56,674 bases of DNA from a virus. Lineage: Duplodnaviria; Caudoviricetes. The DNA lies in the IMG/VR virus record IMGVR_UViG_3300037826_000110, positions 1 to 56,674 of that record; one strand, given 5' to 3'. Within the stretch, counting starts at the first letter, position 1; each line of letters begins with the position of its first letter. Positions 7,449 to 49,371 of this stretch are shown one piece after another. The notes beneath the pieces were generated by a model. That model had not been told where the DNA came from. It was given only the letters and a program-made list of their open reading frames with translations, and did not search any database. A program made the position numbers and the translations under genes.

Positions 7449-7465
7449 TTATTTCCCAGGAAATA
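7449..7465. promoter_or_regulatory. NBS-like palindrome 1
   Basis: TTATTTCCCAGGAAATA. Confidence 0.8.
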
Positions 7466-7501
7466 CTCCTCTAGCCAAAAGGCGCGGATCGCTCCGCGCC
7501 T

Positions 7502-7775
7502 CTACATCTCCAATTTGATGCGCCGATCCAGCCAGTTCAACAAGCGCATATCGTGCAGCCACCAATCCGGCTGCTCCAACAGGCTCCCCGGAAATGGTAA
7601 AAACTTTTCGCCGAAAGACTTCCATAGCTTCCAGATCTCAAAGCTCAGCTCCGGCCTATGTAGCGCCCAATCATCGTCATCTTCCGCCGGTTGCTCCTGA
7701 GCCGCCTCCAGCGTCTCATTGTAGTCAATTAACCAGTTTCGGATTCGGACGCGGCATTCTCCGCGTCTTTTTTTT
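7502..7775 (-). CDS. -1 frameshift extension of the tail chaperone (gpGT-like)
   Basis: GAA AAA AAA at 7776-7768; the -1 frame is open to 7502 and ends with an LPFPGSLLEQP motif. Confidence 0.7.
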
Positions 7776-8139
7776 CGGCGGTATCCTCCTCCGAAGCATT
7801 GCTTTTTGGTCGCCATTCGGGATTAAGATCGAAGACCACCTTGCGCCAAGCCACAAATAATTCTCTGGGTATTTTCGCCAGATCCTCCGGTTGCATGTCG
7901 CGGACATCAATGCCCTCAGATTCTATAGTCGCAGCGACGAGACTGGGGTAATAGAGATATGACAAAATGCCGCGTGCCGTCGTAGCCACATCCGCGCTGT
8001 TGGTGTCGATAGCGCCATATTCTTTCTGAATGCGACTTAGCAACAGGTCACGAATGATACCAGTTTCTGCCGTTGCCTCCGCAACGACCAGGCGGACGTC
8101 GTGTTCCTCGTCCCTATATGTGACGGTTGCGGTCTTCAT
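7729..8139 (-). CDS. Tail assembly chaperone (gpG-like)
   Basis: Follows tail tube gene; A8 slippery run near the 3' end. Confidence 0.75.
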   Translation of the reverse strand: MKTATVTYRDEEHDVRLVVAEATAETGIIRDLLLSRIQKEYGAIDTNSADVATTARGILSYLYYPSLVAATIESEGIDVRDMQPEDLAKIPRELFVAWRKVVFDLNPEWRPKSNASEEDTAEKKDAENAASESETG

Positions 8140-9023
8140 TAAGCCTGCTCGATTAGGGCGATAATGACGTCGTCGGATTCCGGCTCGGAGCCGGCGCCAA
8201 AGTCCACGGACGTGGCGTCAATGGTCACCGAGCTGGTCACGTCGCTGACGGTGCCGGCCGTGGCGCTGTAATGCCAGACCTGCACGGCGTAATCGCCGTC
8301 GGCACGCTGTCGCGCGGTGACAGCGTCACCATTCTCATCGGCAAAGGTGAAATCGTGGAGCGTGTCGTTGCCAAGCGCCCAATTTAGAATTGGCTGGCCA
8401 CGCCCTACGCCGAGCACGACTTGCCCTTCCTCGGCCCCTTCGGTGGCGGTGGCGAAGTCTACGCCCCAGATGTGTTTCCCGACCTTATCGGGGTATACAC
8501 CATACGTATGTTCGTCGGCGGCCCCTTCCTCCATCGGTGCACCTTGATGTACAACGCGGGCGCTGGGTAAGATGTGCCAGATCCAGCGCGTTTGACCGCG
8601 CGTGGAGGAACCCTTGCGGGTGTCGGTGGCCTGGCGATAGGCTAAGATCCCCATCTCCGGCTCTTCACCCTGCTTATCGGTGACCATCAACTTAGCCGTC
8701 ATCTCGCCGAGGCTAAAGGTATTCACGCCCTCAATTGTCGCAGCGATCTCCAAATCCGTCATCCCCGTGCGCAGCTCGTAGGATGCCAACTCCGTGGCCG
8801 GGAGCACCGTCTGGCCGCCTACGCGGTCACTACCGGTGTGCTGAACGATCGTCGGTTCTGGAAATGTGGGCGTCATGGCCTTGGCGAGTTCAAACCGGTG
8901 ACCGGCCTCCATGGTCCCAGCGGCAGCAGCCACAAAAGGCAAATTATTATCATCGAGGGGAATCAATTGCACGTGGCGCAACCCTGCGCCACTCGCCTTC
9001 CCCGTAACTGGATCAGCAGCCAT
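8139..9023 (-). CDS. Major tail tube protein
   Basis: Position between terminator-like and chaperone genes, strong SD, beta-rich 294 aa. Confidence 0.7.
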   Translation of the reverse strand: MAADPVTGKASGAGLRHVQLIPLDDNNLPFVAAAAGTMEAGHRFELAKAMTPTFPEPTIVQHTGSDRVGGQTVLPATELASYELRTGMTDLEIAATIEGVNTFSLGEMTAKLMVTDKQGEEPEMGILAYRQATDTRKGSSTRGQTRWIWHILPSARVVHQGAPMEEGAADEHTYGVYPDKVGKHIWGVDFATATEGAEEGQVVLGVGRGQPILNWALGNDTLHDFTFADENGDAVTARQRADGDYAVQVWHYSATAGTVSDVTSSVTIDATSVDFGAGSEPESDDVIIALIEQA

Positions 9024-9050
9024 AGAAAAACCTCCTTATAATCGCTTGTA

Positions 9051-9062
9051 GAACAAGCGTTC
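9051..9062. promoter_or_regulatory. LexA (SOS) box, GAAC-N4-GTTC
   Basis: GAACAAGCGTTC, just upstream of the tail tube gene. Confidence 0.55.
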
Positions 9063-9568
9063 TAATCCTGATATACTCGCATGTAGAGCGTGGGCGTGTA
9101 GGTGCCGGCCGTGCTGTAAATCTTGATACGAGCACAGCGACCGGTAACATCAAAAGCCCTGGCGGCGTCACCATCACCGGAGATCGTAAAATCATGCACA
9201 TCTTCTAGCGTAATCAGCGTGTCGGTGGCCGCCTCACTCTCCATAATCTTGTACTCTGTGGATGTGTACCAGTTTGTGGCTGACGCGCAATTCACCCCCG
9301 ACTGTCCTGATTGCTGCAACACAACCGTGGTTGTGCCGGCTCCCCCACTAACCACAACGTGAGCGTGAATATTGACCTTGTCGTACAGTGCGACGTAGGT
9401 CGCATCCGCATAACCGGTCGTGGTATAAGTAGCCTGATACGTGGTCTCTTGTGCCGGCGCAGCCTCTACGGGCTCCGAATTGGGCAATAGCGACAAGCCC
9501 ACAAATAACGCCAAAACCCCCAGCGCCACGGCCAGGGCCAATCTTAGATTATTACGTGTATTGATCAT
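9062..9568 (-). CDS. Signal-peptide protein, paralog of 10554-11150
   Basis: Start reassigned to ATG 9568 (GGAGGG SD); N-terminal hydrophobic stretch; shared C.SAT.W and G.C.R.K...TYTPT motifs. Confidence 0.65.
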   Translation of the reverse strand: MINTRNNLRLALAVALGVLALFVGLSLLPNSEPVEAAPAQETTYQATYTTTGYADATYVALYDKVNIHAHVVVSGGAGTTTVVLQQSGQSGVNCASATNWYTSTEYKIMESEAATDTLITLEDVHDFTISGDGDAARAFDVTGRCARIKIYSTAGTYTPTLYMRVYQD

Positions 9569-10016
9569 ATTCTCCCTCCAGTGGAGCGCTAAAATTGATC
9601 TGTTCATAATGCGTTTCAAAGTCGTTAAAAACCTCGTGCCCGCTGCGATTGTCGAACTCCAGTTTAATCACGGTCATATCCCGCGTCAGCGGAATCGGTT
9701 TCCCGGCCAGCGCTTCGATCACGGCCTCGCGTGCGTTGCGGATGTTGTCGTAGCCGTAATTGGAACCTCGGTCGTAGACATAGACGGTACAAGAGGCGCG
9801 TTGCCCACCTTGCTCGCCGGTGTCCATCACCAAGATGGCCAGCGCCTTACTCTCACCGTTTTCCTGCCGCGTGCGCTGGGCGGCTTGTAGGTCTGCGGCT
9901 GATAGATTGCCGGATTGGACGATGCCGGCTATACCGCCGATCACCAAATCTGTGACGGCGACGGTGACCTTAAGAGTCTCAATCGCCCACTGGGCGATAT
10001 CGCTGTACTCTGTCAT
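9552..10016 (-). CDS. Putative tail terminator protein
   Basis: Position, size about 154 aa, V.VYD...IRNAR..V..AL pattern. Confidence 0.5.
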   Translation of the reverse strand: MTEYSDIAQWAIETLKVTVAVTDLVIGGIAGIVQSGNLSAADLQAAQRTRQENGESKALAILVMDTGEQGGQRASCTVYVYDRGSNYGYDNIRNAREAVIEALAGKPIPLTRDMTVIKLEFDNRSGHEVFNDFETHYEQINFSAPLEGEYDQYT

Positions 10017-10131
10017 AGAGGTCCAATGCAGCGCGCACGCCAAAGAAAAAACCAAACACGGCGCCGATGGCCATCCCGATCATCGAGAAAGCCAGTAGCA
10101 GCAGCGCGGTCGCAGCCTGGCTAATCGGCAT
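9979..10131 (-). CDS. Small single-TM peptide (50 aa)
   Basis: MPISQAATALLLLAFSMIGMAIGAVFGFFFG...; fills the gap between neighbours. Confidence 0.4.
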   Translation of the reverse strand: MPISQAATALLLLAFSMIGMAIGAVFGFFFGVRAALDLYDRVQRYRPVGD

Positions 10132-10564
10132 ACTGTGCGGCAATCACCTTGATCTCGGCCAAGGATTTGGGGCCAATGCCATGTACGTCTAGCAAGGCCT
10201 CATCTCCCTGCTGCTCCAGCAGATTCCGCACCGCCCCCAGTGTCGCGATACCGGCATCCTCCAGCGCCGAGACGATGTCCGCACGCAACTCCGTTTCACC
10301 TAGGAGGATCTGATCCTCTTCGGAAAGCAGCCCCACGCCCACGGGTGCATAGTGCACCTCCCAGCGCTGGAATTGCTCTGGGATGACGGCCGTCACGGTC
10401 CCCACGGCCTCGCCGTTACGGAATAGCTCGGCACCGATGGGGATGGGTGGGTATTGCGGATGACGCGGGGTAATGATAACGCTGTGCTGTTTGTCCAGTC
10501 GATGAGCCTCGAAGCGCCACTGCACGTGGCCATCGACCATTACCACCATATCGTTATTGGCCAT
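10121..10564 (-). CDS. Protein with C-terminal helix-hairpin-helix (RNAP alpha-CTD-like) domain
   Basis: ALEDAGIATLG...LLDVHGIGPKSLAEI. Confidence 0.65.
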   Translation of the reverse strand: MANNDMVVMVDGHVQWRFEAHRLDKQHSVIITPRHPQYPPIPIGAELFRNGEAVGTVTAVIPEQFQRWEVHYAPVGVGLLSEEDQILLGETELRADIVSALEDAGIATLGAVRNLLEQQGDEALLDVHGIGPKSLAEIKVIAAQYAD

Positions 10565-13371: not shown

Positions 13372-13391
13372 ATTATTTCCTGGGAAATAAT
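13372..13391. promoter_or_regulatory. NBS-like palindrome 2
   Basis: ATTATTTCCTGGGAAATAAT, beside the capsid SD. Confidence 0.85.
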
Positions 13392-15052: not shown

Positions 15053-17161
15053 TCACAGCCAAACCCACCGCCCGTTCACTTCTTCCTCCAAGTGACAGCG
15101 GCAGCGTCCGTCGCACTCTGTGCCATACCCGGGCAAAGTTCCACCTGTCGTTGAAAGCATCGCACTCATAGAGGGGTAGGTACGATCTCCGAAGCGCAGG
15201 CAGGTAGGGCAATGCTCAGCCAGCGGGTCCCATTCCCAACGCACGGCGCCGTCCTCTTGGTCGTACTGCCGGCGCTGATAGATCCCGCTCCAAATCCCCC
15301 GCCACACGTGCCCCGCGTACAACTCCGCGCGGGAATAACTCTGTGTCGCCGCTTTCACCGCCTCGGTGACCTCAAAGATCACCTCTTCACGACGGTCCTG
15401 CTTGAGTAGAAGCATGATCGCCGCGATGCGCCCCTCCAGTGTGCCGGCAATATCTCCAAATAAGGACGGCCGCCCTTCGGGATTCTCACGGCGCAATTCC
15501 CCACCAGTCTCATAGCCGATCCACGAATCGGCCAACTGAATCTCTTGCTGTAGGGCCATCAGTTGCTCCGGTCCCCCGGAGGGCTTACCGAAGCCCATCC
15601 AGAAGGCGGCCGCGATGTCCAGCAGGGACTTTTCGCGGAAGAGCAGCAACCCGGCCAGGATCAAGTCATCCAGCGTCTCACGTACCTGGGTTGCCGTCGC
15701 GTCCTCGCCCAGATCGGCGACGGTCTCGGCGGTCTCGGCGGTCCAGGTCTCGATATTCTCACGTTGGGCACTGGCATTTTCCTCCGCCAGTGCCTCGTAC
15801 TCTTTTGGGCGCTGGGCGGGGGGCGGGTGCTGGCCGTCGGCAAAGTGGAGCAAATTATTTCCTGGGAAATAATGGGCCGCTTGCGGTTCCTCCTCCTCGG
15901 CGACCTCTTCTTCGTCTTGCACCGGCTCCGGGCGCTCCAAAGCCTCCTCCGGGGGCTCCGGCATTCCCGGAATTAGTGAGCGCAGGAAGGCTTCTGTGCG
16001 CATGTCGGACGTGAGCAAGCGCGCGCTTGTCAGCGTGCCAATGTATTGCGCAATCTGCGTCAGGTCCAAACTGCGCGGGGAGGAGTGGCGCAGCTCGGGT
16101 AGAGCCGTCAGACCGGGGAAGTCATTGTAGCGGAAAAGATACGGGATGGCGTGACGGTTGAACTGCCCGGCGATATTATCCAGATACGCCTCTACGGAGA
16201 GCACAAAGGCGTCCAACAGTGTCTCGGCCAGGGCCTGGGTCCCTACGGAACGCAAGCCCAGGAGGAGAAACTGCGCTAAGATAGCGCGTGCCATCTCGGA
16301 GTCCTTGCGCATGATAGTGTTGCTCATGGTGGTATCGACGTTACCCTCCGGGCCGCCGAGATCCAGATCCCAACCCGAGGGCATCACCGCGCCCATCAGC
16401 TTGTCATTGTAGATGTTCTCTACCAGGCCCTCAGCCTTGGCCTCGTCGGAGTCCTCGCCATCCTCCGTGCGGGTGGTCGCGGTTTCTGGCAACGTGACGC
16501 GGGGGAACCCGGCCCAGCGGCGATACAGGCCGATGCCCTCCACCTGCTCCAGGCGACGCTTGTATTGCCAGGGACGCACGGCCGGGCGGTAAATGCTCAC
16601 GCCTTCGGGATCGTCACCCTCTCGCGAGGTGCGGAAGAGCACGCTGCGCTCCAGCGGGATCAGCACCGGCGCGCCATCCAGGCGGTTTTGCCACATTCCC
16701 AGCAGGTCGCCGTCGGTATCGTATTGCCAGCGGTTGAGCGTCTGTTGCGGTCGCAGGGCGATTTTGCGATACCCAACGCGGCCGTCGTCGAACTTGGACT
16801 GTGACGGCCGGCGGCGCTTGAGTACCATCTCAAAGTACGCCCAACCAAACGGAAACATCAAGCACACATCCGAGATTAGATCTGAGAATGACAGGCTCAT
16901 ATCATTGAATGCCGACCAAGCAAACTCTGCCGCCTCGCGGTCCACGTCCTCCTCGCCCCCGGCCTCGCAGTGCCAAGAGACCTTCCGCACCATCAAAGAG
17001 AGCGTCAGGTACATCGCCGCCGCGGTCGGATCGGTGCGGCGCATTTCGTCATATTTGCGGATACCGTTTAGGCCCCGTAACGCAGGATCGGATTCGACGA
17101 GTAGTGAATCCCCCCACTGGGACCGTCCGGTCACGCCTAATTGCTTAAATGCACTGGGCAT
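15053..17161 (-). CDS. Portal protein (Mu gp29/DUF935-like) fused to a MuF-like minor head domain
   Basis: Follows TerL; G...FE.V, P.G.S.YR, I.RAILAQ motifs; acidic linker, then C-terminal HCPTC...C..RCRC. Confidence 0.85.
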   Translation of the reverse strand: MPSAFKQLGVTGRSQWGDSLLVESDPALRGLNGIRKYDEMRRTDPTAAAMYLTLSLMVRKVSWHCEAGGEEDVDREAAEFAWSAFNDMSLSFSDLISDVCLMFPFGWAYFEMVLKRRRPSQSKFDDGRVGYRKIALRPQQTLNRWQYDTDGDLLGMWQNRLDGAPVLIPLERSVLFRTSREGDDPEGVSIYRPAVRPWQYKRRLEQVEGIGLYRRWAGFPRVTLPETATTRTEDGEDSDEAKAEGLVENIYNDKLMGAVMPSGWDLDLGGPEGNVDTTMSNTIMRKDSEMARAILAQFLLLGLRSVGTQALAETLLDAFVLSVEAYLDNIAGQFNRHAIPYLFRYNDFPGLTALPELRHSSPRSLDLTQIAQYIGTLTSARLLTSDMRTEAFLRSLIPGMPEPPEEALERPEPVQDEEEVAEEEEPQAAHYFPGNNLLHFADGQHPPPAQRPKEYEALAEENASAQRENIETWTAETAETVADLGEDATATQVRETLDDLILAGLLLFREKSLLDIAAAFWMGFGKPSGGPEQLMALQQEIQLADSWIGYETGGELRRENPEGRPSLFGDIAGTLEGRIAAIMLLLKQDRREEVIFEVTEAVKAATQSYSRAELYAGHVWRGIWSGIYQRRQYDQEDGAVRWEWDPLAEHCPTCLRFGDRTYPSMSAMLSTTGGTLPGYGTECDGRCRCHLEEEVNGRWVWL
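15854..15873. promoter_or_regulatory. NBS-like palindrome 3
   Basis: ATTATTTCCTGGGAAATAAT, in the portal-MuF linker. Confidence 0.85.
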
Positions 17162-17204
17162 ATCATCCCCCTTATTGCCTGTAATCAATGTTATAGGTTA
17201 TTCA

Positions 17205-19210: not shown

Positions 19211-19948
19211 TCATGAGACGATCATAACCCTCTGCGTGCGCTTGACACGAATGAATAGATTCAGTCCCTTCTTGCTGCGGCGGATTTCTAGATGCTTACC
19301 CCATTTACTCTTGAGATAAGCTAGCTCGCGCTCGTTACGTTCACCGGAGCGCATGTGCGCGTTCCCTCCGGTGTTGTTAAAGCGCTGATGCATTATGGCG
19401 CAACGCTCGTCCACAAGCACGCAACGGTATTTTAGGAGTGCTTGGAGACAATAGTCGATATCCGCGCGCAGCTTCAACGAGGTGTCGTAGCGCAGCTCGC
19501 GTCCAATAATTCCAATCGCGCCCCCGACCCAGTTGTTAAGGGAAAATGGGTTCTGGGGGTGAAACTTGCGTACATCGCCACTGTGCTGTGAGAAACCAAA
19601 CACACAGGTCCCGAGGCCCCTGGCGATCCGGGCCGCGTTCTCAACCATTTGCAAAGCTACGTCAGGATCGACGACAGTCGCGGCGGCGGTGGTGCGTCCG
19701 GCGTTCATGCGCAGGTGGCTGACGTCGTCATCGACCATAAAGACGGTCTCCTCTGTGATATTATCCAGGATCCACTGTCGCAGGGGACCAATCCCCGCCA
19801 CGCTCGACGGGTGCGTGATAATTTCTGCATCCAGGACGGCATAGTCCTCCGCTTCGGCCTCATCTACGCACACGGCGGCCGAGGGGAACAGCTCAAGCGC
19901 CTTCCCACATAACGCTACTCTTCGTCGACTGGGGATGATGATGCGCAT
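19211..19948 (-). CDS. GT-A fold glycosyltransferase (TAGT/GREB1-like), putative DNA modification
   Basis: IIIPSRRR, RQWILD, VFMVDDD, DIDYCLQ motifs; ATG 19948 with GGAGG. Confidence 0.7.
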   Translation of the reverse strand: MRIIIPSRRRVALCGKALELFPSAAVCVDEAEAEDYAVLDAEIITHPSSVAGIGPLRQWILDNITEETVFMVDDDVSHLRMNAGRTTAAATVVDPDVALQMVENAARIARGLGTCVFGFSQHSGDVRKFHPQNPFSLNNWVGGAIGIIGRELRYDTSLKLRADIDYCLQALLKYRCVLVDERCAIMHQRFNNTGGNAHMRSGERNERELAYLKSKWGKHLEIRRSKKGLNLFIRVKRTQRVMIVS

Positions 19949-22719: not shown

Positions 22720-22760
22720 CGTTTCTTACCTCCTCTACCTCCGTAGTTTTTATATGACCT

Positions 22761-22825
22761 GCCTTATCAATGATCGGATGGTCAATCCCGATCAGACGCC
22801 CGGCCTAGAGGCCAGGCGTTTCGGC
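22761..22825 (-). ncRNA. Type II hammerhead ribozyme 1 (U3-A8 variant)
   Basis: GCC GAAA CGCC..GGCG UC^ UGAUCGGG-loop-UCCGAUCA UUGAUAA GGC; loop UGACC pairs with 3' GGUCA. Confidence 0.9.
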
Positions 22826-23538: not shown

Positions 23539-23569
23539 TCTCTTACACCTCCGTGGTTTTGTATGACCT

Positions 23570-23631
23570 GCCTTATCAATGACCGGGTGGTCAATCCCGG
23601 CCAGACGCCGAGGTTATCTCGGCGTTTCGGC
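23570..23631 (-). ncRNA. Type II hammerhead ribozyme 2
   Basis: GCC GAAA CGCCGAG/CUCGGCG UC^ UGGCCGGG/CCCGGUCA UUGAUAA GGC AGGUCA. Confidence 0.9.
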
Positions 23632-23805: not shown

Positions 23806-23815
23806 TCACACCCTC

Positions 23816-24715: not shown

Positions 24716-24743
24716 TCTCTCACACCTCCGTGGTTTATGATCT

Positions 24744-28569: not shown

Positions 28570-28589
28570 ATTATTTCCCAGGAAATAAT
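28570..28589. promoter_or_regulatory. NBS-like palindrome 4
   Basis: ATTATTTCCCAGGAAATAAT, before the holin gene. Confidence 0.85.
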
Positions 28590-30264: not shown

Positions 30265-30882
30265 CTAAAACGGAATAGTGCGATTATGGACATCCTCAAA
30301 TGGCCATGCCCCGGTGAACAGTGTCTCAATAGCTACATTACCGTAGTCACCGTAGACACCCACCCGCAGACACATCTGCGGGCGCTCGTCGAAGATCCGC
30401 CCGATCACACCATAGAAACGCAAGCCTTGCTCGTCGCGGGTATCCTCGCTGGAAAAGAAAACGTTCATCTGGTGATGGCTGTGGATGTCGGCGATGATGT
30501 CCGCGTCATCGCCTCCCTCGTAGGTCAGGCGCGCACTGCCGGCCTGTTGCGACGGTCGCCACACGCTGACCAAGCCGTCACGCAGCACGAGGTGATACAG
30601 AACCTCACGCGGCCCCTCGCGGGCCACGCTGCGCGCGTTGACCAGGATCTGACGCAAGAGAATGTTTTGGATGGGGCTGAAGTCTAAGTCCACAAACGGC
30701 TCTAGCTTCGGCAGTCCAGCCACGCGACACGCCGCGACCTGAATGCAGGCGGTGAAGTGCCGCGCGCGGGCTAACTTGAAGATGCCATTGCCCGCGAGCA
30801 CGTAGGCGTAGGCTTTCCCCGACGACAAGCTCGGGGTATGGCCATTATGCATCAGATAATCTACGGGATTCGGTAACATCAT
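30265..30882 (-). CDS. JAB/MPN peptidase (PRTRC protein A-like)
   Basis: E...DIHSH...FFS..D..DE.G.R.Y.V.G, R.G.YG. Confidence 0.88.
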   Translation of the reverse strand: MMLPNPVDYLMHNGHTPSLSSGKAYAYVLAGNGIFKLARARHFTACIQVAACRVAGLPKLEPFVDLDFSPIQNILLRQILVNARSVAREGPREVLYHLVLRDGLVSVWRPSQQAGSARLTYEGGDDADIIADIHSHHQMNVFFSSEDTRDEQGLRFYGVIGRIFDERPQMCLRVGVYGDYGNVAIETLFTGAWPFEDVHNRTIPF

Positions 30883-31583
30883 GCCTCCCATAAGTGCCGA
30901 AGGGCCAGGTTACTATGTCTCAGGTCTTCAAGGGGATATTCATCCGCACCGACCACGACAGGATCGCGCCACATCGCGATGATGCTCTCCTCGTATTTCT
31001 TGGATTTGCCGTCTTCCAAGTCGTGATTGAACTGGCTAGCGAAGAACATTTCCGCAGCCTCACAAATCGTTTCCACCGTGCAAGCCGGGAACGGGACATC
31101 CCCCTGGCACACACGTCCGTCGCGCCAGATGTTTGGCGCGGGGAAATAGTACAGTGGTTCCCGTCCGGCTGCGGGGTAACGCCGGACCGCGAAGATCCTG
31201 TACGTGCGACCCTGCCCTACGAAAACGGCCGGTGGGAAGGGTACACGCATGTCCACCACTTCACCCTCATGGTACAGCTTCACCGTGCGCACCTGGGGAG
31301 GGCGATATATACCCAAACGCGGTTGTGCCCCCAGATCACAAAACAGGCAATTGCGGGGCAGCAACCCCGACACTATCGGCAGCCCGGCCATCGAGGCCGC
31401 CAGAGCATCCGGCGATACCTCGTAGCACTGCGCGACGTGCCCATGCTCAAAGCGCGTCATCACGATGGACTCGTCGTACAGGTCCAGGCGCATGCGCAGC
31501 GCCTGGCGTTGCTCTACGTCCACCCCGGTCCCTGCGAGACCCAAGGCAGATAGGTGTTCTATTTTTCCATTTTCTGGTTCCAT
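30879..31583 (-). CDS. Prokaryotic E2-like protein (PRTRC protein B-like)
   Basis: P.PP.VF, LY..P.PN....G.VC.G, FF.S.F.H. Confidence 0.85.
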   Translation of the reverse strand: MEPENGKIEHLSALGLAGTGVDVEQRQALRMRLDLYDESIVMTRFEHGHVAQCYEVSPDALAASMAGLPIVSGLLPRNCLFCDLGAQPRLGIYRPPQVRTVKLYHEGEVVDMRVPFPPAVFVGQGRTYRIFAVRRYPAAGREPLYYFPAPNIWRDGRVCQGDVPFPACTVETICEAAEMFFASQFNHDLEDGKSKKYEESIIAMWRDPVVVGADEYPLEDLRHSNLALRHLWEA

Positions 31584-33443: not shown

Positions 33444-33677
33444 CTAAAATCCTTCTGGCACCCGCTTACCGGGCACCGGGTCCAAAGCTTCCAGACGCTC
33501 ACGAAACTTCTCCACGGCTTCAATATGTGCGTAGAGGTCCAGGAGCGCCCGTTCTATCTCCGCCTGGCGCTGGGCGACATCCGCCCCGGCCTCCAGGTCC
33601 AGCAGGAGCCGGACGGCGGCGAGCTCCAACGGGGGAACCTCCGCCATCCGCTCCGCAAGCTCACGCGCCGTCGTCAT
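33444..33677 (-). CDS. Hypothetical helical protein
   Basis: Start reassigned to ATG 33677, overlapping the upstream ORF end. Confidence 0.6.
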   Translation of the reverse strand: MTTARELAERMAEVPPLELAAVRLLLDLEAGADVAQRQAEIERALLDLYAHIEAVEKFRERLEALDPVPGKRVPEGF

Positions 33678-34113
33678 CCGGGATAACCGGGCCGTGCTGC
33701 TCGAGGGCCGCGACGCAGAGAGCGGCCATTTTGACAATGCGATACCGTGCTCTGCTAAGTTCTTCAGCGCCAATATCTTGTGAAGCATGCCCCCATTCCT
33801 CAGCGATATAATCCAGCCACACGCTGGGACCATGGCGTTTTCCGTCAATCTCACCGTTTAACGTCATGCGTTCTTGCACGTTGCAGATTGCCGCTAGCAC
33901 ATTGGCGCGGCTGACCAACGCACCCTTGGTCCCCGCACGCTTGACGAAGGTAACCACCTTGTTACCTTCGTCGTCCTCGCTCTCCTCGACGCTGGCGTTA
34001 GCCAGCTCCGGAAAGTATTGGCGCAGGTGATCCTGCATCTGCTGCGTTGTAAGCTCGTCTTCCTCGTCCCGATATTCATAGTCCCCGTGGGGATATTTGT
34101 AAATCGTTGCCAT
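33661..34113 (-). CDS. Ubiquitin-like protein (PRTRC protein C-like) fused to a MazG-like helical domain
   Basis: YFPELANA...V.F.KRAGTKG at residue 64, then in frame EEWG...IVKMAALCVA. Confidence 0.78.
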   Translation of the reverse strand: MATIYKYPHGDYEYRDEEDELTTQQMQDHLRQYFPELANASVEESEDDEGNKVVTFVKRAGTKGALVSRANVLAAICNVQERMTLNGEIDGKRHGPSVWLDYIAEEWGHASQDIGAEELSRARYRIVKMAALCVAALEQHGPVIPDDDGA

Positions 34114-34144: not shown

Positions 34145-35614
34145 TCACGCCGGGGCGCGATCTTCCTCAGATTCCTGCTCAAATATATCAATGCCTATTT
34201 CCTCGCGGATCATTCTAGCCATCACCGAGGCCAGGTGCCCTAGGTCACTCTTGTCTATGGCCCCGGGCCGTCCGGGCTTTCCCACCGAGACGGTGACCGC
34301 CAGATCCTCCGGGCTTTCCCCATTCTGGGGTACGTCGATGCGGGCCGTGAGAATAATTTGCGGCTTGGGGGGAGGCGGAGGGGGCACCGCTGGCCTTGAT
34401 GATGCCGGCGGCGGCGATTGGGGCTCACTCAGCGTCCCCACCGCAACCCCACACCGCGCGTTATTCGCAATCCCCGCATCCTGCGCCGCGTCCACCGGCG
34501 CGCTGGCTATGTGCTCCGGAGCCGATAACTCATGCTCTTCCGGCTGCGGATTGCCGGCGCGTTCCCAGCAATCGGGGCAGATGTTGATGCCCGCGAAGCG
34601 GTACCAATCGCGCTCTTTGTCGTTGGCGACCTCGGTACCGCAGGCGCGGCAGCGGGTCCAGAACGTCGGGCGGTGCGTTTTCCACCCGGCGTGCTGCTCG
34701 TACATGCGCTTGGCCAACGCTGGTCCTTCGACCTGCTTCTCGAAGGTCGTGCTCTTGAGCTCAAAGCACGTCCGCCAAGAGCAGCGCAACTCCCGACCGA
34801 TCTTTGTCGCATACCGGCATCCCGCGCAGGCATGCATGATGCCGTTGCCGGGGACCTGGGGTTTCATCTCTGGCTCCCAGTCCATGGCCCACGGTGCACC
34901 ATCGAGGGAGGCCGTCTCCGTCTCGATGTGGCGCTTGACGGCCATCTCCACGTCGACCACGCTGCGCTCATGGCCCAGGAGACGCATGTACGTGGGCTTT
35001 TCCTCACCAAGGGCCACCAGGGGTAGCAGTGCCCGGGCGTGCCGTTCGCCCAGACCCCGCGCCACCTCATCCTGGATGAAGTCGGGGAGTTGCAGGAGGC
35101 GCAGTTTGTTGGCTACGGTGCTCTGACTGAGGCCCCAGCGGTTGCCGATCTCCGCCTGGGTCCAGCCAAATTTTTCCCCCGCCATCTGCATCATGCGCGC
35201 CTGCTCGATAGCGTTGTTGTCCTCGCGCTCTTGATTTTCCTGGAAGGCGATGTCGGCCATGGCCTCGTCGTCCAGTGCCTTGAGGTCGACGGGGAACGTG
35301 GCGTATGTGGTGTCGCTCTGCGCGCTGAAGGTCTCGTGAATCAGTCGGAAGGCGCGCAGACGCCGATGGCCGGCGGCCAGTTGGATCTCCAGCCCTTCAC
35401 GACGGCCGTCCTCGATCCGCGCCACGGCCTCGGCGGGATCCAGGACCTCGCCGTTCAATAGCGCCCGCGCCGGGGGGACGTGGATTAGGCCGCTGGTTTC
35501 GGGAAGCTCGTGGCGCATTTGTAAAATTGAGTTCTCCAGGTCGGCGGTGTAGTACTTCATCCGCGCCTGGAATGGATTGTCACTGATCATCTTATTTGCT
35601 ACTCTGGTAATCAT
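34145..35614 (-). CDS. ParB-family CTPase with Noc-type HTH and Cys-rich C-terminal domains (PRTRC ParB)
   Basis: NPFQAR, AGHRRLRA, EN..RED, GLSQSTVANKLRLLQLP...ERHARALLPL. Confidence 0.88.
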   Translation of the reverse strand: MITRVANKMISDNPFQARMKYYTADLENSILQMRHELPETSGLIHVPPARALLNGEVLDPAEAVARIEDGRREGLEIQLAAGHRRLRAFRLIHETFSAQSDTTYATFPVDLKALDDEAMADIAFQENQEREDNNAIEQARMMQMAGEKFGWTQAEIGNRWGLSQSTVANKLRLLQLPDFIQDEVARGLGERHARALLPLVALGEEKPTYMRLLGHERSVVDVEMAVKRHIETETASLDGAPWAMDWEPEMKPQVPGNGIMHACAGCRYATKIGRELRCSWRTCFELKSTTFEKQVEGPALAKRMYEQHAGWKTHRPTFWTRCRACGTEVANDKERDWYRFAGINICPDCWERAGNPQPEEHELSAPEHIASAPVDAAQDAGIANNARCGVAVGTLSEPQSPPPASSRPAVPPPPPPKPQIILTARIDVPQNGESPEDLAVTVSVGKPGRPGAIDKSDLGHLASVMARMIREEIGIDIFEQESEEDRAPA

Positions 35615-35633: not shown

Positions 35634-35655
35634 AATTATTTCCCAGGAAATAATT
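35634..35655. promoter_or_regulatory. NBS-like palindrome 5
   Basis: AATTATTTCCCAGGAAATAATT, immediately upstream of the Noc-like parB. Confidence 0.85.
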
Positions 35656-39112: not shown

Positions 39113-39129
39113 TTATTTCCCAGGAAATA
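39113..39129. promoter_or_regulatory. NBS-like palindrome 6
   Basis: TTATTTCCCAGGAAATA, between the divergent promoters. Confidence 0.8.
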
Positions 39130-39146: not shown

Positions 39147-39175
39147 TTGACATTTAAAAGCGGATATGATACAAT
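39147..39175 (+). promoter_or_regulatory. Rightward early promoter
   Basis: TTGACA-17-TACAAT with extended TG. Confidence 0.85.
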
Positions 39176-41388: not shown

Positions 41389-41394
41389 CATGAC

Positions 41395-41754
41395 ATGCCC
41401 CAGACCCCGCAACGCCGCGCGCGCTATCCCGCCGACTGGCGCATCATCGCCACCAGCGTCAAGGACCAAGCCGCCTGGTGCTGCGAGCACTGCGGACGGC
41501 CCCACGATCCTCTCAACGGTCACCCGCTCACCGTCCACCACCTGGACAACACGCCAGAGAACAACCAGTGGTACAACCTGGTGGCGTTGTGCCTGCCGTG
41601 CCATGCCAAGATCGCGGCGCATTACACACCGGGGCAGCGGACGTTTGATTTCTACGAGCCCCCGGCATGGATGGCCGAGCGGGGTCTGGTACGCGGGGCG
41701 CGGCAGATGGCGTTTTGGTTTTATGGACCTGGGGAATTATTTCCCAGGAAATAA
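41395..41754 (+). CDS. HNH endonuclease
   Basis: YP.DW, CEHCG, LTVHHLD..P.NN...NL.ALC..CH. Confidence 0.85.
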   Translation: MPQTPQRRARYPADWRIIATSVKDQAAWCCEHCGRPHDPLNGHPLTVHHLDNTPENNQWYNLVALCLPCHAKIAAHYTPGQRTFDFYEPPAWMAERGLVRGARQMAFWFYGPGELFPRK

Positions 41755-41755
41755 T
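41736..41755. promoter_or_regulatory. NBS-like palindrome 7
   Basis: ATTATTTCCCAGGAAATAAT, before parM. Confidence 0.85.
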
Positions 41756-41777
41756 CACACAACACGGAGGAATTGAG

Positions 41778-42749
41778 ATGCAATTAGGCATAGACTTAGG
41801 TTACAACGAAGTAAAATCGGTATCGGACAAGGAACACCAGCGCTTCCCAGCGGTCATAGGCACGCCAGAGGAAGCCTCGTTCTCACTGAACGGCGATCAG
41901 AGCATGATCTTGCTCAAGCCGGCGCACGTCTCTCTGGGGATGGGGGCCGTGATGCACTCGCGTTTCAATAATCGCCGCGAGTCACGGAACTGGATTGAGA
42001 CGGCCGACTATCACCACCTGTTCTGTGGCGCGCTCACACAGCACACCACAGCCACACAGATCAGTGTGGACCTGGTGACCGGCTTACCCATCGCCTTCTA
42101 CGGCGATAAGGGACGTCTGGCCGGGATCTTGACCGGAGAGCACAGCGTCCAGGTCCAGGGGCGCACGGCGCAGCTCTTTAGGGTCAATCACGTGCGCGTG
42201 ATCCCGCAGCCGTTCGGAAGCTTGCTCAGCGTAGTTCTGGATGGCCGGGGGCAGATCGTGGACAATGACCTGGCCCTATCGCGGGTGGGCGTGATCGACG
42301 TCGGAGGCAAGACCACCAACCTCCTCAGCGTCCACAAGCTGACGGAGCTGGACCGTGAGTCCACCAGCGTCAGCGCTGGGGGGTGGCGCTTAGTGCGTGC
42401 AGTTCGGCAGTGGCTGGCGGCCAACAAGCCCGGCCTCGACGAAATGCGCGATCACGAACTGGCTGAGGCAATCAAGGTGCAGCGCATTAACTGCGCTGGC
42501 GAGCCGGTGAGCGAATTTCCGAGCATCGTCAGCGGCTACGCCGATAGCCTGGCTCAAGAAATCATCGCCACCGCCACACAACTGTGGAACGGTGGGGCGC
42601 TCCTGGACAAGATCCTGGTCACCGGGGGCGGAGCCCTATTACTGGGGGAGGCTATCCGCACCCGCTGGCCACGGGCGGAGATTGTTCCGTCGCCGGTATA
42701 CGCGAATGCCATCGGCTATCACCGCCTGGCTAAGCGGTTGTACGGGTAG
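41778..42749 (+). CDS. parM: ParM/StbA actin-like partition ATPase
   Basis: GIDLGYNEVK, VTGLP, PQP.G, IDVGGKTT, TGGGA, ANA.GY; start ATG 41778. Confidence 0.9.
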   Translation: MQLGIDLGYNEVKSVSDKEHQRFPAVIGTPEEASFSLNGDQSMILLKPAHVSLGMGAVMHSRFNNRRESRNWIETADYHHLFCGALTQHTTATQISVDLVTGLPIAFYGDKGRLAGILTGEHSVQVQGRTAQLFRVNHVRVIPQPFGSLLSVVLDGRGQIVDNDLALSRVGVIDVGGKTTNLLSVHKLTELDRESTSVSAGGWRLVRAVRQWLAANKPGLDEMRDHELAEAIKVQRINCAGEPVSEFPSIVSGYADSLAQEIIATATQLWNGGALLDKILVTGGGALLLGEAIRTRWPRAEIVPSPVYANAIGYHRLAKRLYG

Positions 42750-45946: not shown

Positions 45947-45964
45947 TGGGTGTTGGACGTAGAG

Positions 45965-45994
45965 AGCCCCCCGCTGGATCACCAGCGGGGGGCT
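45965..45994. terminator. Bidirectional terminator hairpin between convergent operons
   Basis: 13-bp perfect stem AGCCCCCCGCTGG/CCAGCGGGGGGCT. Confidence 0.75.
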
Positions 45995-45995
45995 T

Positions 45996-46015
45996 ATTAT
46001 TTCCTGGGAAATAAT
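45996..46015. promoter_or_regulatory. NBS-like palindrome 8
   Basis: ATTATTTCCTGGGAAATAAT, at the convergent junction. Confidence 0.85.
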
Positions 46016-48835: not shown

Positions 48836-48883
48836 CTCAATGCCCTCCGTGCTATTAGTTAACTTTCCTTCATCGGTAACTTA

Positions 48884-48912
48884 ATTATACATCAACTCTC
48901 TGAGAACGTCAA
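48884..48912 (-). promoter_or_regulatory. Strong sigma70 promoter of the anti-defence operon
   Basis: TTGACG-17-TATAAT. Confidence 0.85.
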
Positions 48913-48997
48913 TAGTACTTTAGTACTATACGGAAGCTGTAACGCAGTGTTCTATTTTTATAGAACAAACGGAGGTGGGGGCGCGTGGGAGCCCCAT

Positions 48998-49030
48998 AAA
49001 AAATGGCCGGTGACTCGCAGGTCACCGGCC
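48998..49030 (-). terminator. Intrinsic terminator
   Basis: GGCCGGTGAC-loop-GTCACCGGCC-ATTTTTT. Confidence 0.8.
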
Positions 49031-49153
49031 TGAACAAGAGGCGGGGGTAGCAAAATCAACGCTCCCCCCAACTTGGGCATCTCTCAGTAGGGGGCCTTCT
49101 CGGAGAAGAGAGCGCTCGCCCCCTGGTCACGTGCGCTCCCTTCCCGCAGAGAA

Positions 49154-49195
49154 GAACAACTGTTCTAATTATACCCATCCTCCCCGGCTCGTCAA
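49154..49195 (-). promoter_or_regulatory. Promoter with a LexA box over the start site
   Basis: TTGACG-16-TATAAT (49195-49168); GAACAACTGTTC at 49154-49165. Confidence 0.75.
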
Positions 49196-49265
49196 GCGCG
49201 CGTCCGAGCGCTGCCCAATCCCCAAGCCGCTCGCCGCCATGCACATACCCCCTGACGCTCCCAAG

Positions 49266-49341
49266 TGCCAAACTGCCAAACGTGCCAAACCCCGCCAAAC
49301 CGGCGGAAAACCCTTGACAAACTGCCAAATCCGTGACAAAC
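49266..49341 (+). repeat. Array of 7 oriented octamers, consensus TG(C/A)CAAAC
   Basis: Copies at 49266, 49274, 49283, 49293, 49315, 49323 and 49334. Confidence 0.7.
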
Positions 49342-49352
49342 AGGGCCTCCCT

Positions 49353-49371
49353 ATTATTTCCTGGGAATAAT
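49353..49371. promoter_or_regulatory. NBS-like palindrome 9 (1-nt deletion)
   Basis: ATTATTTCCTGGGAATAAT. Confidence 0.65.

What the first reader, a model, noticed from the sequence alone, without database searches (positions are those of the whole stretch)
7449..49371. Nine genome-wide Noc-box-like palindromes matched by a phage ParB with Noc-type recognition residues
Seen: ATTATTTCC(CA/TG)GGAAATAAT recurs nine times (7449, 13372, 15854, 28570, 35634, 39113, 41736, 45996, 49353) in a GC-rich genome, mostly intergenic or next to SDs, including directly upstream of parB 34145-35614. Known (from memory): the B. subtilis Noc site is TATTTCCCGGGAAATA, one base different. Noc specificity uses Q/K/K/R where ParB has R/T/A/G. 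The phage HTH (QSTVANKLRLLQLP...ERHARALLPL) gives Q/K/Q/R and closely resembles Noc; the CTP motif G.RR.RA is intact. No Noc-like N-terminal amphipathic helix and no ParA are visible. Inference: a CTP clamp that loads on and marks the phage's own DNA, for self-recognition, regulation, or recruiting the downstream ubiquitin-like enzymes. Every copy contains CCWGG, so binding could be methylation-sensitive.
Basis: partly seen in the sequence, partly recalled or inferred. Interest (0 to 1): 0.92.

Follow-up and report, generated by a model that had tools for sequence, protein, structure and literature searches.

The report
Phage Noc-like ParB and its sites
A complete phage genome carries nine copies of a 16-base palindrome that is one base away from the binding site of the bacterial Noc protein, and it encodes its own ParB/Noc-type DNA-binding protein whose recognition residues change together with the palindrome across related phages, which points to a phage-owned system for marking or controlling its DNA.

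Summary
TATTTCC(CA/TG)GGAAATA occurs 8 times exactly, plus one copy with a 1-base deletion, in a complete 56.7-kb phage genome with terminal repeats (0.11 expected). Seven of the nine copies lie in the ~4% of non-coding DNA.

The 489-aa protein encoded at 34145-35614(-) has a ParB/Noc fold. Its best solved relatives are Noc, and its specificity residues are Q/K/Q/R.

The protein-site pairing is supported by comparison. Distant relatives (~40-60% protein identity) keep the exact 16-mer 5-11 times per genome, usually with one copy next to the parB gene. Across about 40 loci, Q at the first specificity position goes with A at site position 1, and R goes with G. I predicted a nested R-type subgroup would carry TGTTTCC..GGAAACA and then found exactly that. 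This matches the published ParB/Noc recognition code.

The protein is not a Noc orthologue. It forms a separate phage clade, has no membrane helix, no ParA partner and a different C-terminus, and the host is probably Chloroflexota.

The function is inferred. The most likely role is a KorB/BisD-like CTP clamp that regulates phage operons and its own gene. A conserved ubiquitin-like E1/E2/JAB module sits downstream. The methylation idea gained no support.

The parts
7450..7465 (.). Palindrome copy 1 (exact 16-mer). It lies after a terminator-like hairpin and 13 nt before the SD/ATG of a small (-) ORF that heads the tail-gene block.
13374..13389 (.). Palindrome copy 2 (exact), 16 nt upstream of the major capsid gene start at 13357 (-).
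15856..15871 (.). Palindrome copy 3 (exact), inside the Mu-type portal gene 15053-17188 (-), in an acidic linker where it is read as YFPGNN. In G001 and G002 the equivalent site sits just upstream of the portal gene.
28572..28587 (.). Palindrome copy 4 (exact). It lies after terminator 28643-28613 (-) and 19 nt before the start of gene 28109-28552, which is followed by an M23 peptidase gene. It lies about 700 nt downstream of the E1 (ThiF) gene.
35637..35652 (.). Palindrome copy 5 (exact), 22 nt upstream of the parB-1 start codon. It is a candidate autoregulatory or loading site.
39114..39129 (.). Palindrome copy 6 (exact core, divergent flanks), between two divergent near-consensus sigma70-type promoters.
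41738..41753 (.). Palindrome copy 7 (exact), 24 nt upstream of the actin-like (ALP_N) gene 41778-42749 (+). It overlaps the last codons of ORF 41390-41776.
45998..46013 (.). Palindrome copy 8 (exact), at the convergent gene junction directly after terminator hairpin 45964-45995. No gene start lies next to it.
49355..49370 (.). Palindrome copy 9, degenerate (one A missing in the right arm). It lies between the stop of ORF 49387-51588 and the SD of the next (-) gene.
34145..35614 (-). parB-1 (P0001, 489 aa). It has a divergent ParB N-domain (Box I NPFQAR, Box II GHRRLRAF, Box III ENQER), a Noc-type HTH (Q164/K170/Q175/R191), a Cys-rich zinc-ribbon region, a Pro-rich linker and a small C-terminal domain.
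33661..34113 (-). Prokaryotic ubiquitin-like protein gene directly downstream of parB-1.
   Evidence: PF14454, 26.9 bits; conserved linkage
30879..31583 (-). Prok-E2_D (E2-like) gene.
   Evidence: PF14460, 75.1 bits
30265..30891 (-). Prok-JAB peptidase gene.
   Evidence: PF14464, 25.6 bits
29278..30069 (-). ThiF/E1-like adenylating enzyme gene.
   Evidence: PF00899, 63.5 bits
39056..39084 (-). Leftward promoter-like site: TTGACA, 17 nt, TACAAT (11 of 12, with TG).
39147..39175 (+). Rightward promoter-like site: TTGACA, 17 nt, TACAAT (11 of 12, with TG).

Best explanation
The nine palindromes are the cognate DNA sites of the phage's own ParB-family protein, ParB-1 (34145-35614).

A ParB-1 dimer reads each 16-mer with a Noc-type recognition helix. 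Q164 reads the A at position 1 of each half-site and R191 reads the C at position 6. K170 acts as the permissive lysine.

By analogy with Noc, KorB and BisD, ParB-1 probably binds CTP through its intact Box I-III motifs. It would load as a clamp at the sites and slide onto flanking DNA. With one site roughly every 6 kb, this would cover much of the 56.7-kb genome.

The most likely use is control of phage transcription units, including its own operon. A site sits 22 nt before its start codon, another sits between the divergent early promoters, and others head the capsid, tail, lysis and actin-like gene blocks.

What is shown is the site set, the fold, the residues, and the covariation and co-conservation across phages. 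What is inferred is binding itself (my odds about 0.9), CTP-clamp behaviour (about 0.6) and transcriptional control as the main role (about 0.4).
For: 1. The site set is discrete and far above chance, and it is concentrated in the few non-coding gaps.

2. P0001 has HTH_ParB (71 bits). Its best solved relatives are Noc (7NG0, 7NFU, 7OL9, 6Y93). The family profile scores 119 bits against Noc and 100 bits against Spo0J. The AF2 model has pLDDT 85.6, and its top Foldseek hits are Noc, ParB-CDP and KorB.

3. The recognition code in PMC7383237 (passages read) is: Q173 reads A1, R201 reads C6, and one K at position 179 or 184 is enough. P0001 has Q/K/Q/R, and both half-sites have A1 and C6. Proteins named Noc in the databases also carry QKQR.

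4. Syntenic relatives G001 and G002 share only ~30-70% protein identity with the window yet keep the exact 16-mer. G001, G002, G004 and G010 carry 11, 9, 5 and 4 copies at up to 1 mismatch, against 0 for the reversed-pattern control. All four encode a ParB-1 homologue (E 1e-68 to 1e-77).

5. Covariation. All 14 Q-type loci with a detectable site have A at position 1. Thirteen of 16 R-type loci with a site have G at position 1, as GTTTGCGCGCAAAC or TGTTTCC..GGAAACA.

6. Prediction made before looking: the R-type subgroup nested among Q-types in the tree (P0028 group) should carry G1 on an otherwise unchanged core. Its contigs L231-L233 carry TGTTTCC(CA/TG/CG)GGAAACA. Q-type contigs from the same scan (L234, L236, L237) carry TATTTCCCGGGAAATA.

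7. Of 36 loci (34, plus the window and G002), 19 have a site within about 105 nt of the parB-1 gene boundary: 12 within about 50 nt upstream of the start, and 7 within the last ~105 nt of the gene or just past its stop.

8. The other ParB in the window, ParB-2, has a different recognition helix.
Against: - No binding, CTP or expression data exist. No RNA run holds the sequence.
- Pfam ParB_N did not detect the N-domain of this protein at E <= 0.1. Box II reads GHRR, not GERR.
- The canonical ParB C-terminal dimerisation domain is absent.
- Relatives G001, G002, G004 and G010 have L at position 179. G004 and G010 also lack any basic residue at 184 (QLTR, QLAR), yet they keep the same site. The published 'permissive lysine' rule therefore does not transfer cleanly.
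- Exceptions to the position-1 rule: L136 and L140 have R173 with GTTTTCC..GGAAAAC. L133 has R173 with TGTCCGCGGACA. L120 and L121 have P173 with G1.
- Two unrelated phages (G005, G009) carry the same 16-mer 3-5 times but have a different ParB lineage, which lacks R at position 201.
- About half of the sites in G001 and G002 are not next to a gene start. Apart from the divergent pair at 39.1 kb, no promoter was detected at the sites. A regulatory role is therefore not demonstrated.
Confidence: 0.6

Rival explanations
1. The sites are dispersed centromeres for stable inheritance of an extrachromosomal (plasmid-like) prophage. ParB-1 would be the centromere-binding protein, and the motor would be the actin-like protein or a host ParA. 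This resembles N15 SopB with its IR1-4 sites.
For: No tyrosine integrase was found. The genome has an initiator gene with internal iterons, an actin-like gene with a site 24 nt upstream and an FtsK-like gene. L109 also has the actin-like gene near parB-1. N15 uses four IR centromere sites (PMC7205306, passages read); that they are dispersed across the genome is recalled, not read.
Against: No ParA is encoded, and ParB-1 has no N-terminal ParA-interaction peptide. The actin-like gene has no counterpart in G001 or G002, which keep both sites and protein. Lysogeny is not shown for this phage. Serine recombinases and transposases were not specifically searched.
Confidence: 0.15
2. ParB-1 bound at the sites is mainly a DNA-bound platform for the adjacent ubiquitin-like conjugation module, or it marks phage DNA as 'self' for protection, compaction or packaging. 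Transcription control would not be its main role.
For: The order parB-1, Ubl, (unknown), E2, JAB, E1 is conserved in the window, G001, G002, L109, L111, L112, L113 and L114, and partly in the distant L125. A second site follows the E1 gene within 0-700 nt in the window, G001, G002, L111 and L113.
Against: The linkage is absent in L115, L116 and most distant family members, which still have cognate palindromes. Nothing ties the Ubl enzymes to DNA. PADLOC gave only generic E1 similarity.
Confidence: 0.15
3. A host protein (host Noc, ParB or another factor) binds the palindromes, and the resemblance to the phage HTH is coincidental.
For: The site is one base from the NBS. Unrelated phages G005 and G009 carry the same 16-mer, as they might if a shared host factor read it.
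Against: The palindrome changes with the phage protein's own recognition residues, including a predicted swap. All four database records with an organism name are Anaerolineae or Chloroflexi MAGs, whereas Noc is reported only from Firmicutes (PMC7383237). No canonical parS lies within 3 mismatches. G005 and G009 encode their own Q-type ParB.
Confidence: 0.04
4. The motif is an RNA- or transcription-level element (hairpin, terminator part or promoter core), or it is the site of another phage protein such as ParB-2. Either way it would be unrelated to ParB-1.
For: Six sites sit just upstream of an SD and would be transcribed. At 45998 the motif supplies the T-run of a terminator. ParB-2 orthologues co-occur with the sites in G001 and G002.
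Against: The RNA hairpin is weak, at -2.7 to -4.7 kcal/mol. Site orientation (CA versus TG) is mixed relative to the downstream gene. The motif is kept inside a coding region (15856). No -35 element accompanies it. ParB-2 has a non-parS, non-NBS recognition helix. This reading does not explain the covariation with ParB-1.
Confidence: 0.05

Closest known systems
Noc and its NBS sites (Bacillus subtilis and other Firmicutes)
   Same: A 16-bp palindrome identical at 15 of 16 positions. The same specificity residues: Q173, K179 and R201, with Q at 184 as in several database-named Nocs. Many sites scattered over the replicon, no ParA partner, and intact CTP-motif boxes. Noc is the best sequence and fold match among solved structures.
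   Different: ParB-1 is not an orthologue; it belongs to a separate phage clade on a long stem. It has no N-terminal membrane-targeting helix. Its C-terminus (zinc ribbons plus a small domain) differs from the ParB CTD. It is encoded by a phage whose host is probably Chloroflexota. Its sites sit at gene boundaries of a 57-kb genome. Nothing suggests a cell-division role.
KorB and its OB operators on plasmid RK2
   Same: A ParB-family protein with about a dozen palindromic sites spread over a mobile replicon, placed near or away from promoters and including its own operon. KorB is a CTP clamp that slides up to 1.5 kb to silence promoters (PMC11790492: abstract and passages read; the figure of '12 binding sites' comes from a reference title). 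KorB structures are among the Foldseek hits.
   Different: KorB also works with IncC (a ParA) and needs the clamp-locking partners KorA and TrbA. None of these was identified here. The KorB Pfam domain scores only E = 0.046, below its cut-off. The site sequences are unrelated.
BisD and bisS on ICEclc (Pseudomonas putida)
   Same: An orphan ParB-like CTP clamp of a mobile element that loads at parS-like sites, spreads over tens of kb and controls the element's promoters through an extra domain absent from ParB (PMC12409273, abstract read).
   Different: BisD has two loading sites rather than nine, acts as an activator with BisC, and has a different extra domain. No homology beyond the ParB core was tested here.
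N15 prophage SopB with IR1-4 centromere sites
   Same: A phage-encoded ParB-type protein with several palindromic sites on the phage genome (PMC7205306, passages read).
   Different: N15 has a SopA (ParA) partner and a proven plasmid-prophage lifestyle. Its protein is a type Ia ParB with a different fold context. That the N15 sites are dispersed and silence genes is recalled, not read.
Canonical chromosomal ParB and parS
   Same: The same fold, the same 16-bp site architecture (xNTTTCxx|xxGAAANx) and a site next to the parB gene. The R-type phage subgroup uses TGTTTCC..GGAAACA, a hybrid of parS (position 1) and NBS (position 6).
   Different: No parA is present, there is no ParA-binding peptide, the C-terminal domain differs, and there are many sites per small replicon.

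Membership tests
ParB-CTPase superfamily with ParB-type HTH | ParB-type helix-turn-helix DNA-binding domain | tested here: met
   PF17762 scores 71.3 bits against a cut-off of 22.6. The model aligns to the Noc DNA-binding domain 6Y93 with target TM 0.84 and rmsd 2.0 over 100 columns.
ParB-CTPase superfamily with ParB-type HTH | N-terminal ParB/Srx fold with Box I (QxR), Box II (GxRRxRA) and Box III (ENxxR) | tested here: met
   The profile alignment to Noc and Spo0J places NPFQAR, GHRRLRAF and ENQER on the three boxes. These residues are invariant in the family. Foldseek aligns about 230 columns to ParB-CDP and Noc structures. Caveat: Pfam PF02195 did not report this gene at E <= 0.1.
ParB-CTPase superfamily with ParB-type HTH | CTP binding and hydrolysis, and clamp closure | not testable with these tools
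   This needs biochemistry. CTP is not among the ligands offered by the complex predictor.
ParB-CTPase superfamily with ParB-type HTH | Canonical C-terminal dimerisation domain (ParB_C) | tested here: not met
   Pfam found no ParB_C hit. The model shows zinc-ribbon-like strands, a long helix, a disordered Pro-rich linker and a small beta-beta-beta-alpha domain instead.
ParB-CTPase superfamily with ParB-type HTH | N-terminal ParA-interaction peptide and a parA partner | tested here: not met
   The protein starts at Box I. PF13614 and PF01656 are absent from the genome.
Noc (nucleoid occlusion protein) | NBS-type specificity residues Q173/K179/K184/R201 | tested here: met
   The window protein has Q/K/Q/R. 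One lysine is sufficient according to PMC7383237. QKQR is also found in proteins that the databases name Noc.
Noc (nucleoid occlusion protein) | N-terminal amphipathic membrane-targeting helix | tested here: not met
   Family profile positions 3-32 align to Noc residues 31-62, so the roughly 28 N-terminal Noc residues that hold the helix have no counterpart (feature described in PMC8429893).
Noc (nucleoid occlusion protein) | Orthology: membership of the Firmicutes Noc clade | tested here: not met
   In a quick ML tree of 54 rows, the 23 family rows form one clade (SH-aLRT 99, stem length 1.38) outside all 30 cellular ParB/Noc rows. The Bacillales Noc clade is separate (support 100). I chose the rows, and the root is a long branch.
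Noc (nucleoid occlusion protein) | Cellular gene of Firmicutes | tested here: not met
   The gene is encoded on a complete phage genome. The only organism names attached to relatives are Anaerolineae or Chloroflexi MAGs, 4 of 4 named records. The genome-contig scan found no family member in 185,579 species genomes.
KorB-type global regulator | Many palindromic operators dispersed over the replicon, including one at its own operon | tested here: met
   The window has nine sites, one of them 22 nt upstream of parB-1. Relatives show the same arrangement.
KorB-type global regulator | KorB sequence family and the partners KorA/TrbA and IncC | tested here: not met
   PF08535 scores E = 0.046 at 14.1 bits, below its 22.3 cut-off. 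No ParA is present. No partner was identified among the neighbouring genes.
KorB-type global regulator | Repression of promoters from the sites | not testable with these tools
   No RNA data are available. Only one site lies beside detectable promoters.

The most novel reading that the evidence does not exclude
A phage-specific branch of the ParB/Noc family loads at NBS-like sites scattered over the phage's own genome. There it acts as a chromatin-like platform that couples phage DNA to a co-inherited ubiquitin-like conjugation machine (Ubl, E2, JAB, E1). The machine might modify ParB-1 itself or other DNA-bound host or phage proteins. This would be a phage-encoded 'mark the genome, then ubiquitinate what sits on it' system in phages that probably infect Chloroflexota.
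Probability: 0.12. Interest if true: 0.9.

Novelty: new variant of a known kind. Interest (0 to 1): 0.7.

Why it matters
1. It is a natural replicate of the laboratory-derived ParB/Noc recognition code. Within one phage protein family, Q-to-R at one helix position goes with A-to-G at one base of the site, at least twice independently. NBS-type specificity also exists outside Firmicutes Noc. That makes the evolution of ParB specificity testable on a new and diverse set of protein-site pairs that are probably orthogonal to host parS. Such pairs could also serve as DNA-labelling tools.

2. It adds a phage example to the small group of orphan ParB-CTPase proteins with many sites on a mobile element (KorB, BisD). 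In those systems the clamp is used for gene control rather than segregation.

3. The conserved linkage to a ubiquitin-like E1/E2/JAB module is unexplained. I did not find it in the papers I searched.

Tried and rejected
Searches and tools that gave nothing
- my pattern was one base short and gave 0 matches. I corrected it.
- megablast of 18 kb against 50,697 phage records found no match, so there is no cultured close relative.
- a single-protein scan of viral contigs confirmed no relative. The alignment-based scan found 36.
- the genome-contig scan returned only distant Firmicutes ParB/Noc (best E 7e-23, HTH region only), so the host could not be read from prophages.
- P0028 alone found nothing in viral contigs. 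The metagenome scan gave 7 loci.
- PADLOC gave only generic E1 hits and a weak BilD hit for the ThiF protein, and nothing for ParB-1, ParB-2, Ubl, E2 or JAB.
- no tRNA genes.
- and 12/13/72/92: most early genes have no family, and no repressor or KorA-like partner was identified.
- no RNA holder is listed. The five DNA holders are coded runs labelled tidal flat metagenome, and one of them may be the source. I did not lay reads.
- (complex prediction, two copies of residues 405-489): no answer. It counts neither for nor against dimerisation.
- the VIA-align search of the model had not finished when I wrote this, so the C-terminal half has no fold assignment.

Ideas tested and dropped
- CCWGG/methylation sensitivity: no PF00145 hit, no over- or under-representation of CCWGG, and relatives use centres without CCWGG.
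- Motif as an RNA hairpin: too weak.
- Motif as a promoter: no -35 element, and the palindrome would sit over the spacer.

An idea kept only as inference
- The asymmetric CA centre may avoid CCCGGG. That hexamer occurs once against 26.9 expected in G001 and not at all in G002, but 14 times against 21.9 expected in the window.

Literature
- Searches turned up no paper describing a phage ParB with NBS-like dispersed sites or a ParB-Ubl linkage. The datasets of PMC12704722 and PMC13229309 may list this family.

Full report
**What the window is.** The window is a complete IMG/VR virus record of 56,674 bp with a 127-bp direct terminal repeat. GC content is about 59%.

Genes run leftward from about 39 kb to 1, rightward from 39.3 to 45.9 kb, and leftward again from 46 to 56.6 kb. 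Pfam identifies:
- a T4-type large terminase, a Mu-type portal, a Mu-like protease/scaffold and a capsid protein;
- a tape-measure protein and an M23 peptidase;
- an initiator with a DnaA_N domain, whose gene contains 7-8 iterons;
- an actin-like protein and an FtsK-like ATPase;
- two ParB-type proteins.

No ParA (PF13614, PF01656), no tyrosine integrase and no C5-methyltransferase were found.

**The observation.** TATTTCC(CA/TG)GGAAATA occurs 8 times exactly. A ninth copy at 49355 lacks one A. The expectation from shuffles is 0.11, and 0 of 100 shuffles reach 9. Allowing 3 mismatches adds nothing.

CA and TG are the two orientations of one asymmetric centre. The orientations are mixed relative to the neighbouring genes.

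On my approximate gene map, 7 of 9 copies fall in the 4.4% of non-coding DNA. Six copies end 13-24 nt before a start codon with a strong SD: five, and 49355 by eye. The remaining placements are:
- one copy between two divergent near-consensus promoters (39084-39056 on the minus strand and 39147-39175 on the plus strand);
- one copy that abuts a terminator at a convergent junction;
- one copy inside the portal gene.

The NBS printed in PMC8429893 is TATTTCCCGGGAAATA and parS is TGTTTCACGTGAAACA (Methods passage). The phage site is therefore the NBS with one central change.

**The protein.** ParB-1 (P0001, 34145-35614, 489 aa) scores only HTH_ParB in Pfam. Its best matches among solved structures are the four Noc entries, ahead of ParB/Spo0J. 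With a family profile the scores are 119 bits for Noc against 100 bits for Spo0J.

The alignments place the three nucleotide boxes as follows:

| Box | ParB-1 | Noc |
|---|---|---|
| I | NPFQAR | N.FQPR |
| II | GHRRLRAF | GERRWRAV |
| III | ENQER | ENLQR |

The recognition region reads SQSTVANKLRLLQLP...GERHARALLPL, against Noc GQSTIANKLRLLKLP...TERHARALIPL.

PMC7383237 (passages) defines four specificity positions. ParB has R173/T179/A184/G201 and Noc has Q/K/K/R. Q173 reads A1, R201 reads C6, and a lysine at 179 or 184 is permissive. ParB-1 has Q/K/Q/R, as do several proteins that databases name Noc.

An AlphaFold2 model built on a 23-row family alignment has mean pLDDT 85.6. Foldseek aligns its first ~235 residues to Noc, ParB-CDP and KorB structures.

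Beyond residue 240 the model shows a Cys-rich region with conserved CxxC pairs, a disordered Pro-rich linker and a small beta-beta-beta-alpha domain. None of this is the canonical ParB C-terminal domain. The protein starts at Box I, so it has neither the Noc membrane helix nor a ParA-binding peptide.

ParB-2 (23816-24715) is a canonical ParB_N plus HTH protein with a different recognition helix, VSPQRVRLRLALL.

**Relatives keep both protein and site.** An exact-match scan of IMG/VR found the 16-mer in 91 stretches, 84 of them listed. Ten contigs hold two or more copies. Copy counts at up to 1 mismatch were as follows, with 0 for the reversed-pattern control in every case:

| Contig | Copies |
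|---|---|
| G001 | 11 |
| G002 | 9 |
| G003 | 6 |
| G004 | 5 |
| G005 | 5 |
| G006 | 4 |
| G007 | 2 |
| G008 | 4 |
| G009 | 3 |
| G010 | 4 |

- G001, G002, G004 and G010 encode ParB-1 homologues at 41-42% identity.
- G001 and G002 are syntenic with the window at only ~30-70% protein identity, yet their sites are letter-perfect.
- G003 duplicates part of G001 (same site spacing). G006 is a 30%-complete fragment of a relative. Absence of the gene in these two says nothing.
- G007 and G008 are unrelated fragments.
- G005 and G009 are unrelated phages (GC 0.52-0.53) that share only ParB-level similarity with the window. They encode a different ParB lineage: GERRYRA, with helices SQAHIANRIRLLKL and SQGRISNLLRLLNL, Q at position 173 but no R at 201.

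It is not met.

**The family and its covariation.** A search of 5.8 billion proteins gave about 40 family members of 433-743 aa, nearly all with HTH_ParB as the only Pfam domain. Below them came ordinary cellular ParB/Noc proteins.

I collected 36 viral loci and 7 metagenome loci. For each I read the residues aligned to positions 173/179/184/201/202 and the palindromes present.

- **Q-type loci.** The window, G001, G002, G004, G010, L109, L113-L116, L141, L234, L236 and L237 all carry xATTTCC(CA/CG/CC)GGAAATx. That is 14 of 14 Q-type loci with a detectable site. L141 rests on a single copy, and L135 has no site.
- **R-type loci with R-Q or R-V at 201/202.** L117-L119, L122-L125, L127 and L137/L138 carry GTTTGCGCGCAAAC or a one-base variant.
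- **Prediction test.** In the tree an R-type subgroup, the P0028 group with RKKR-H, is nested among Q-types. Before looking, I predicted it should have G at position 1 on an otherwise unchanged core. Its contigs L231, L232 and L233 carry TGTTTCC(CA/TG/CG)GGAAACA. The Q-type contigs from the same scan carry TATTTCCCGGGAAATA, the exact NBS. L237 has two CG-centred and two CA-centred copies.

In total, 13 of 16 R-type loci with a site have G at position 1. The exceptions are:
- L136 and L140 (R173 with GTTTTCC..GGAAAAC);
- L133 (R173 with TGTCCGCGGACA, a motif otherwise found with D or A at 173);
- L120 and L121 (P173 with G1).

R at position 201 and C at position 6 are constant throughout.

Site placement also tracks the gene. 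Of 36 loci (34, plus the window and G002), 12 have a site within about 50 nt upstream of the parB-1 start. Seven more have one in the last ~105 nt of the gene or just past its stop.

This pattern is what direct recognition by the phage protein predicts. A host binder would not easily explain it.

**Not a Noc.** In a quick maximum-likelihood tree of 54 rows, the 23 family rows form one clade (SH-aLRT 99) on a stem of 1.38 substitutions per site. All 30 cellular rows lie on the other side, and the Bacillales Noc clade is separate with support 100. The rows were 23 of the ~40 family members trimmed to 260 residues, 9 database-named Nocs, 21 other cellular hits and ParB-2 as outgroup. I chose the cellular rows from hits to P0001, and the root is a long branch, so the origin of the family remains open.

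The only organism names attached to relatives of ParB-1 or the capsid protein are Anaerolineae (3) and Chloroflexi (1) MAGs. That is 4 of 4 named records among 240 listed. One of them sits on a contig of G001's length. A scan of 185,579 species genomes found no family member. Noc is reported as confined to Firmicutes. The host is therefore probably Chloroflexota without a Noc, but this rests on MAG binning.

**How it most likely works.** A ParB-1 dimer binds each palindrome (inferred; my odds about 0.9). Because all three nucleotide boxes are conserved, it probably works as an NTP-gated clamp that loads at the sites and slides, as shown for Noc, KorB and BisD (about 0.6).

The placement of the sites fits a KorB/BisD-like controller of phage operons with autoregulation (about 0.4). 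Sites lie in front of its own gene, between the divergent early promoters, and at the heads of the capsid, tail, lysis and actin-like gene blocks.

Against this reading, about half of the sites in G001 and G002 are not at gene starts, and no partner protein or promoter was found at most sites.

Two other roles stay open. One is partition of an extrachromosomal prophage: there is no integrase, and the genome has an initiator with iterons and an actin-like gene with a site, but there is no ParA and the actin-like gene is missing in relatives. The other is a role tied to the downstream module.

**The ubiquitin-like module.** Directly downstream of parB-1 lie Prok_Ub, three genes without a family, Prok-E2_D, Prok-JAB and ThiF/E1. 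The order parB-1, Ubl, E2, JAB, E1 recurs in G001, G002, L109, L111, L112, L113 and L114, and E2-JAB-E1 also follows a GTTTGC-type ParB in L125. It is absent from L115, L116 and most distant loci. A second palindrome follows the E1 gene within 0-700 nt in five genomes. PADLOC places the module in no known defence system.

**The central asymmetry.** The CA centre is shared by most sites, but CG and CC centres occur in relatives. These phages avoid many 6-bp palindromes. CCCGGG occurs once against 26.9 expected in G001 and not at all in G002, though 14 times against 21.9 expected in the window. Avoidance of a CCCGGG-cutting enzyme is a plausible reason for the one-base departure from a perfect NBS. 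This is inference only.

**Novelty.** Six literature searches found surveys of orphan and phage ParB-fold proteins (PMC12704722, passages read) and ParB activators of phage thymine dioxygenases (PMC13229309: abstract and sections 8 and 12 read). None described a phage ParB with NBS-like sites dispersed over its genome or a link to ubiquitin-like enzymes. Supplements were closed. I rate this a new variant of a known kind: an orphan ParB-CTPase protein with multiple cognate sites on a mobile element.

Noticed in passing
window 22727-25038: A 76-nt element occurs four times (22727, 23536, 24710, 24963). Each copy lies just upstream of a leftward gene: MgsA_C-like, RadC-like, ParB-2 and a small ORF. 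Each contains an inverted repeat followed by a conserved SD. It may be a phage-specific promoter/operator set, possibly the ParB-2 site.
   Followed up: partly
window 19211-20670 and 23816-24715: A TET-associated glycosyltransferase (TAGT, 19211-19993) lies beside a 251-aa ORF (19915-20670). The nearest ESM-Atlas clusters of that ORF are viral, and one of them carries ParB_N in 14% of its members. ParB-2 lies 3 kb away. This resembles the ParB-dependent 5mYOX/glycosyltransferase DNA-hypermodification neighbourhoods of PMC13229309, but Tet_JBP (PF12851) gave no hit.
   Followed up: partly
window 40078-40400: There are seven to eight iterons (about 22-30 nt, core GGAAAGAATTTTCC) inside the DnaA_N-containing gene 39695-41143. 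This is probably the replication origin, embedded in its initiator gene.
   Followed up: no
window, G001 and G002 (whole genomes): Many 6-bp palindromes are strongly avoided. Examples are GGGCCC and CAGCTG (0 observed against 10-15 expected in the window) and CCGCGG, CTGCAG and CCCGGG (0-1 observed against 20-33 expected in G001). This suggests heavy restriction pressure.
   Followed up: partly
G005 (L238-L239) and G009 (L240-L241): Two phages unrelated to the window (GC 0.52-0.53; one flagged as a provirus, one with a 144-bp terminal repeat) carry the same 16-mer 3-5 times. They encode a different, longer ParB lineage (GERRYRA; Q at position 173, T at position 201). NBS-like sites may therefore have been adopted more than once by phage ParBs.
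   Followed up: partly
L117-L140 (viral contigs): Other subfamilies of the same protein family have their own multi-copy palindromes: GTTTGCGCGCAAAC, GTTTGCGTGCAAAC (4 copies in L125), GTTCGCGCGCAAAC, TGTCCGCGGACA and GTTTTCCCAGGAAAAC. His-to-Gln at position 202 goes with TTTCC-to-TTTGC in the core.
   Followed up: partly
window 41778-42749: An actin-like (ALP_N/ParM-type) gene has a palindrome 24 nt upstream. L109 has a homologue (43% identity) near its parB-1. G001 and G002 have none.
   Followed up: partly
window 28679-28900: A small gene (73 aa) has its own promoter-like site (28935-28907) and terminator (28643-28613). It lies between the Ubl module and the lysis genes and could be a regulator. 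Its only hit is a sub-threshold DUF2292 match.
   Followed up: no
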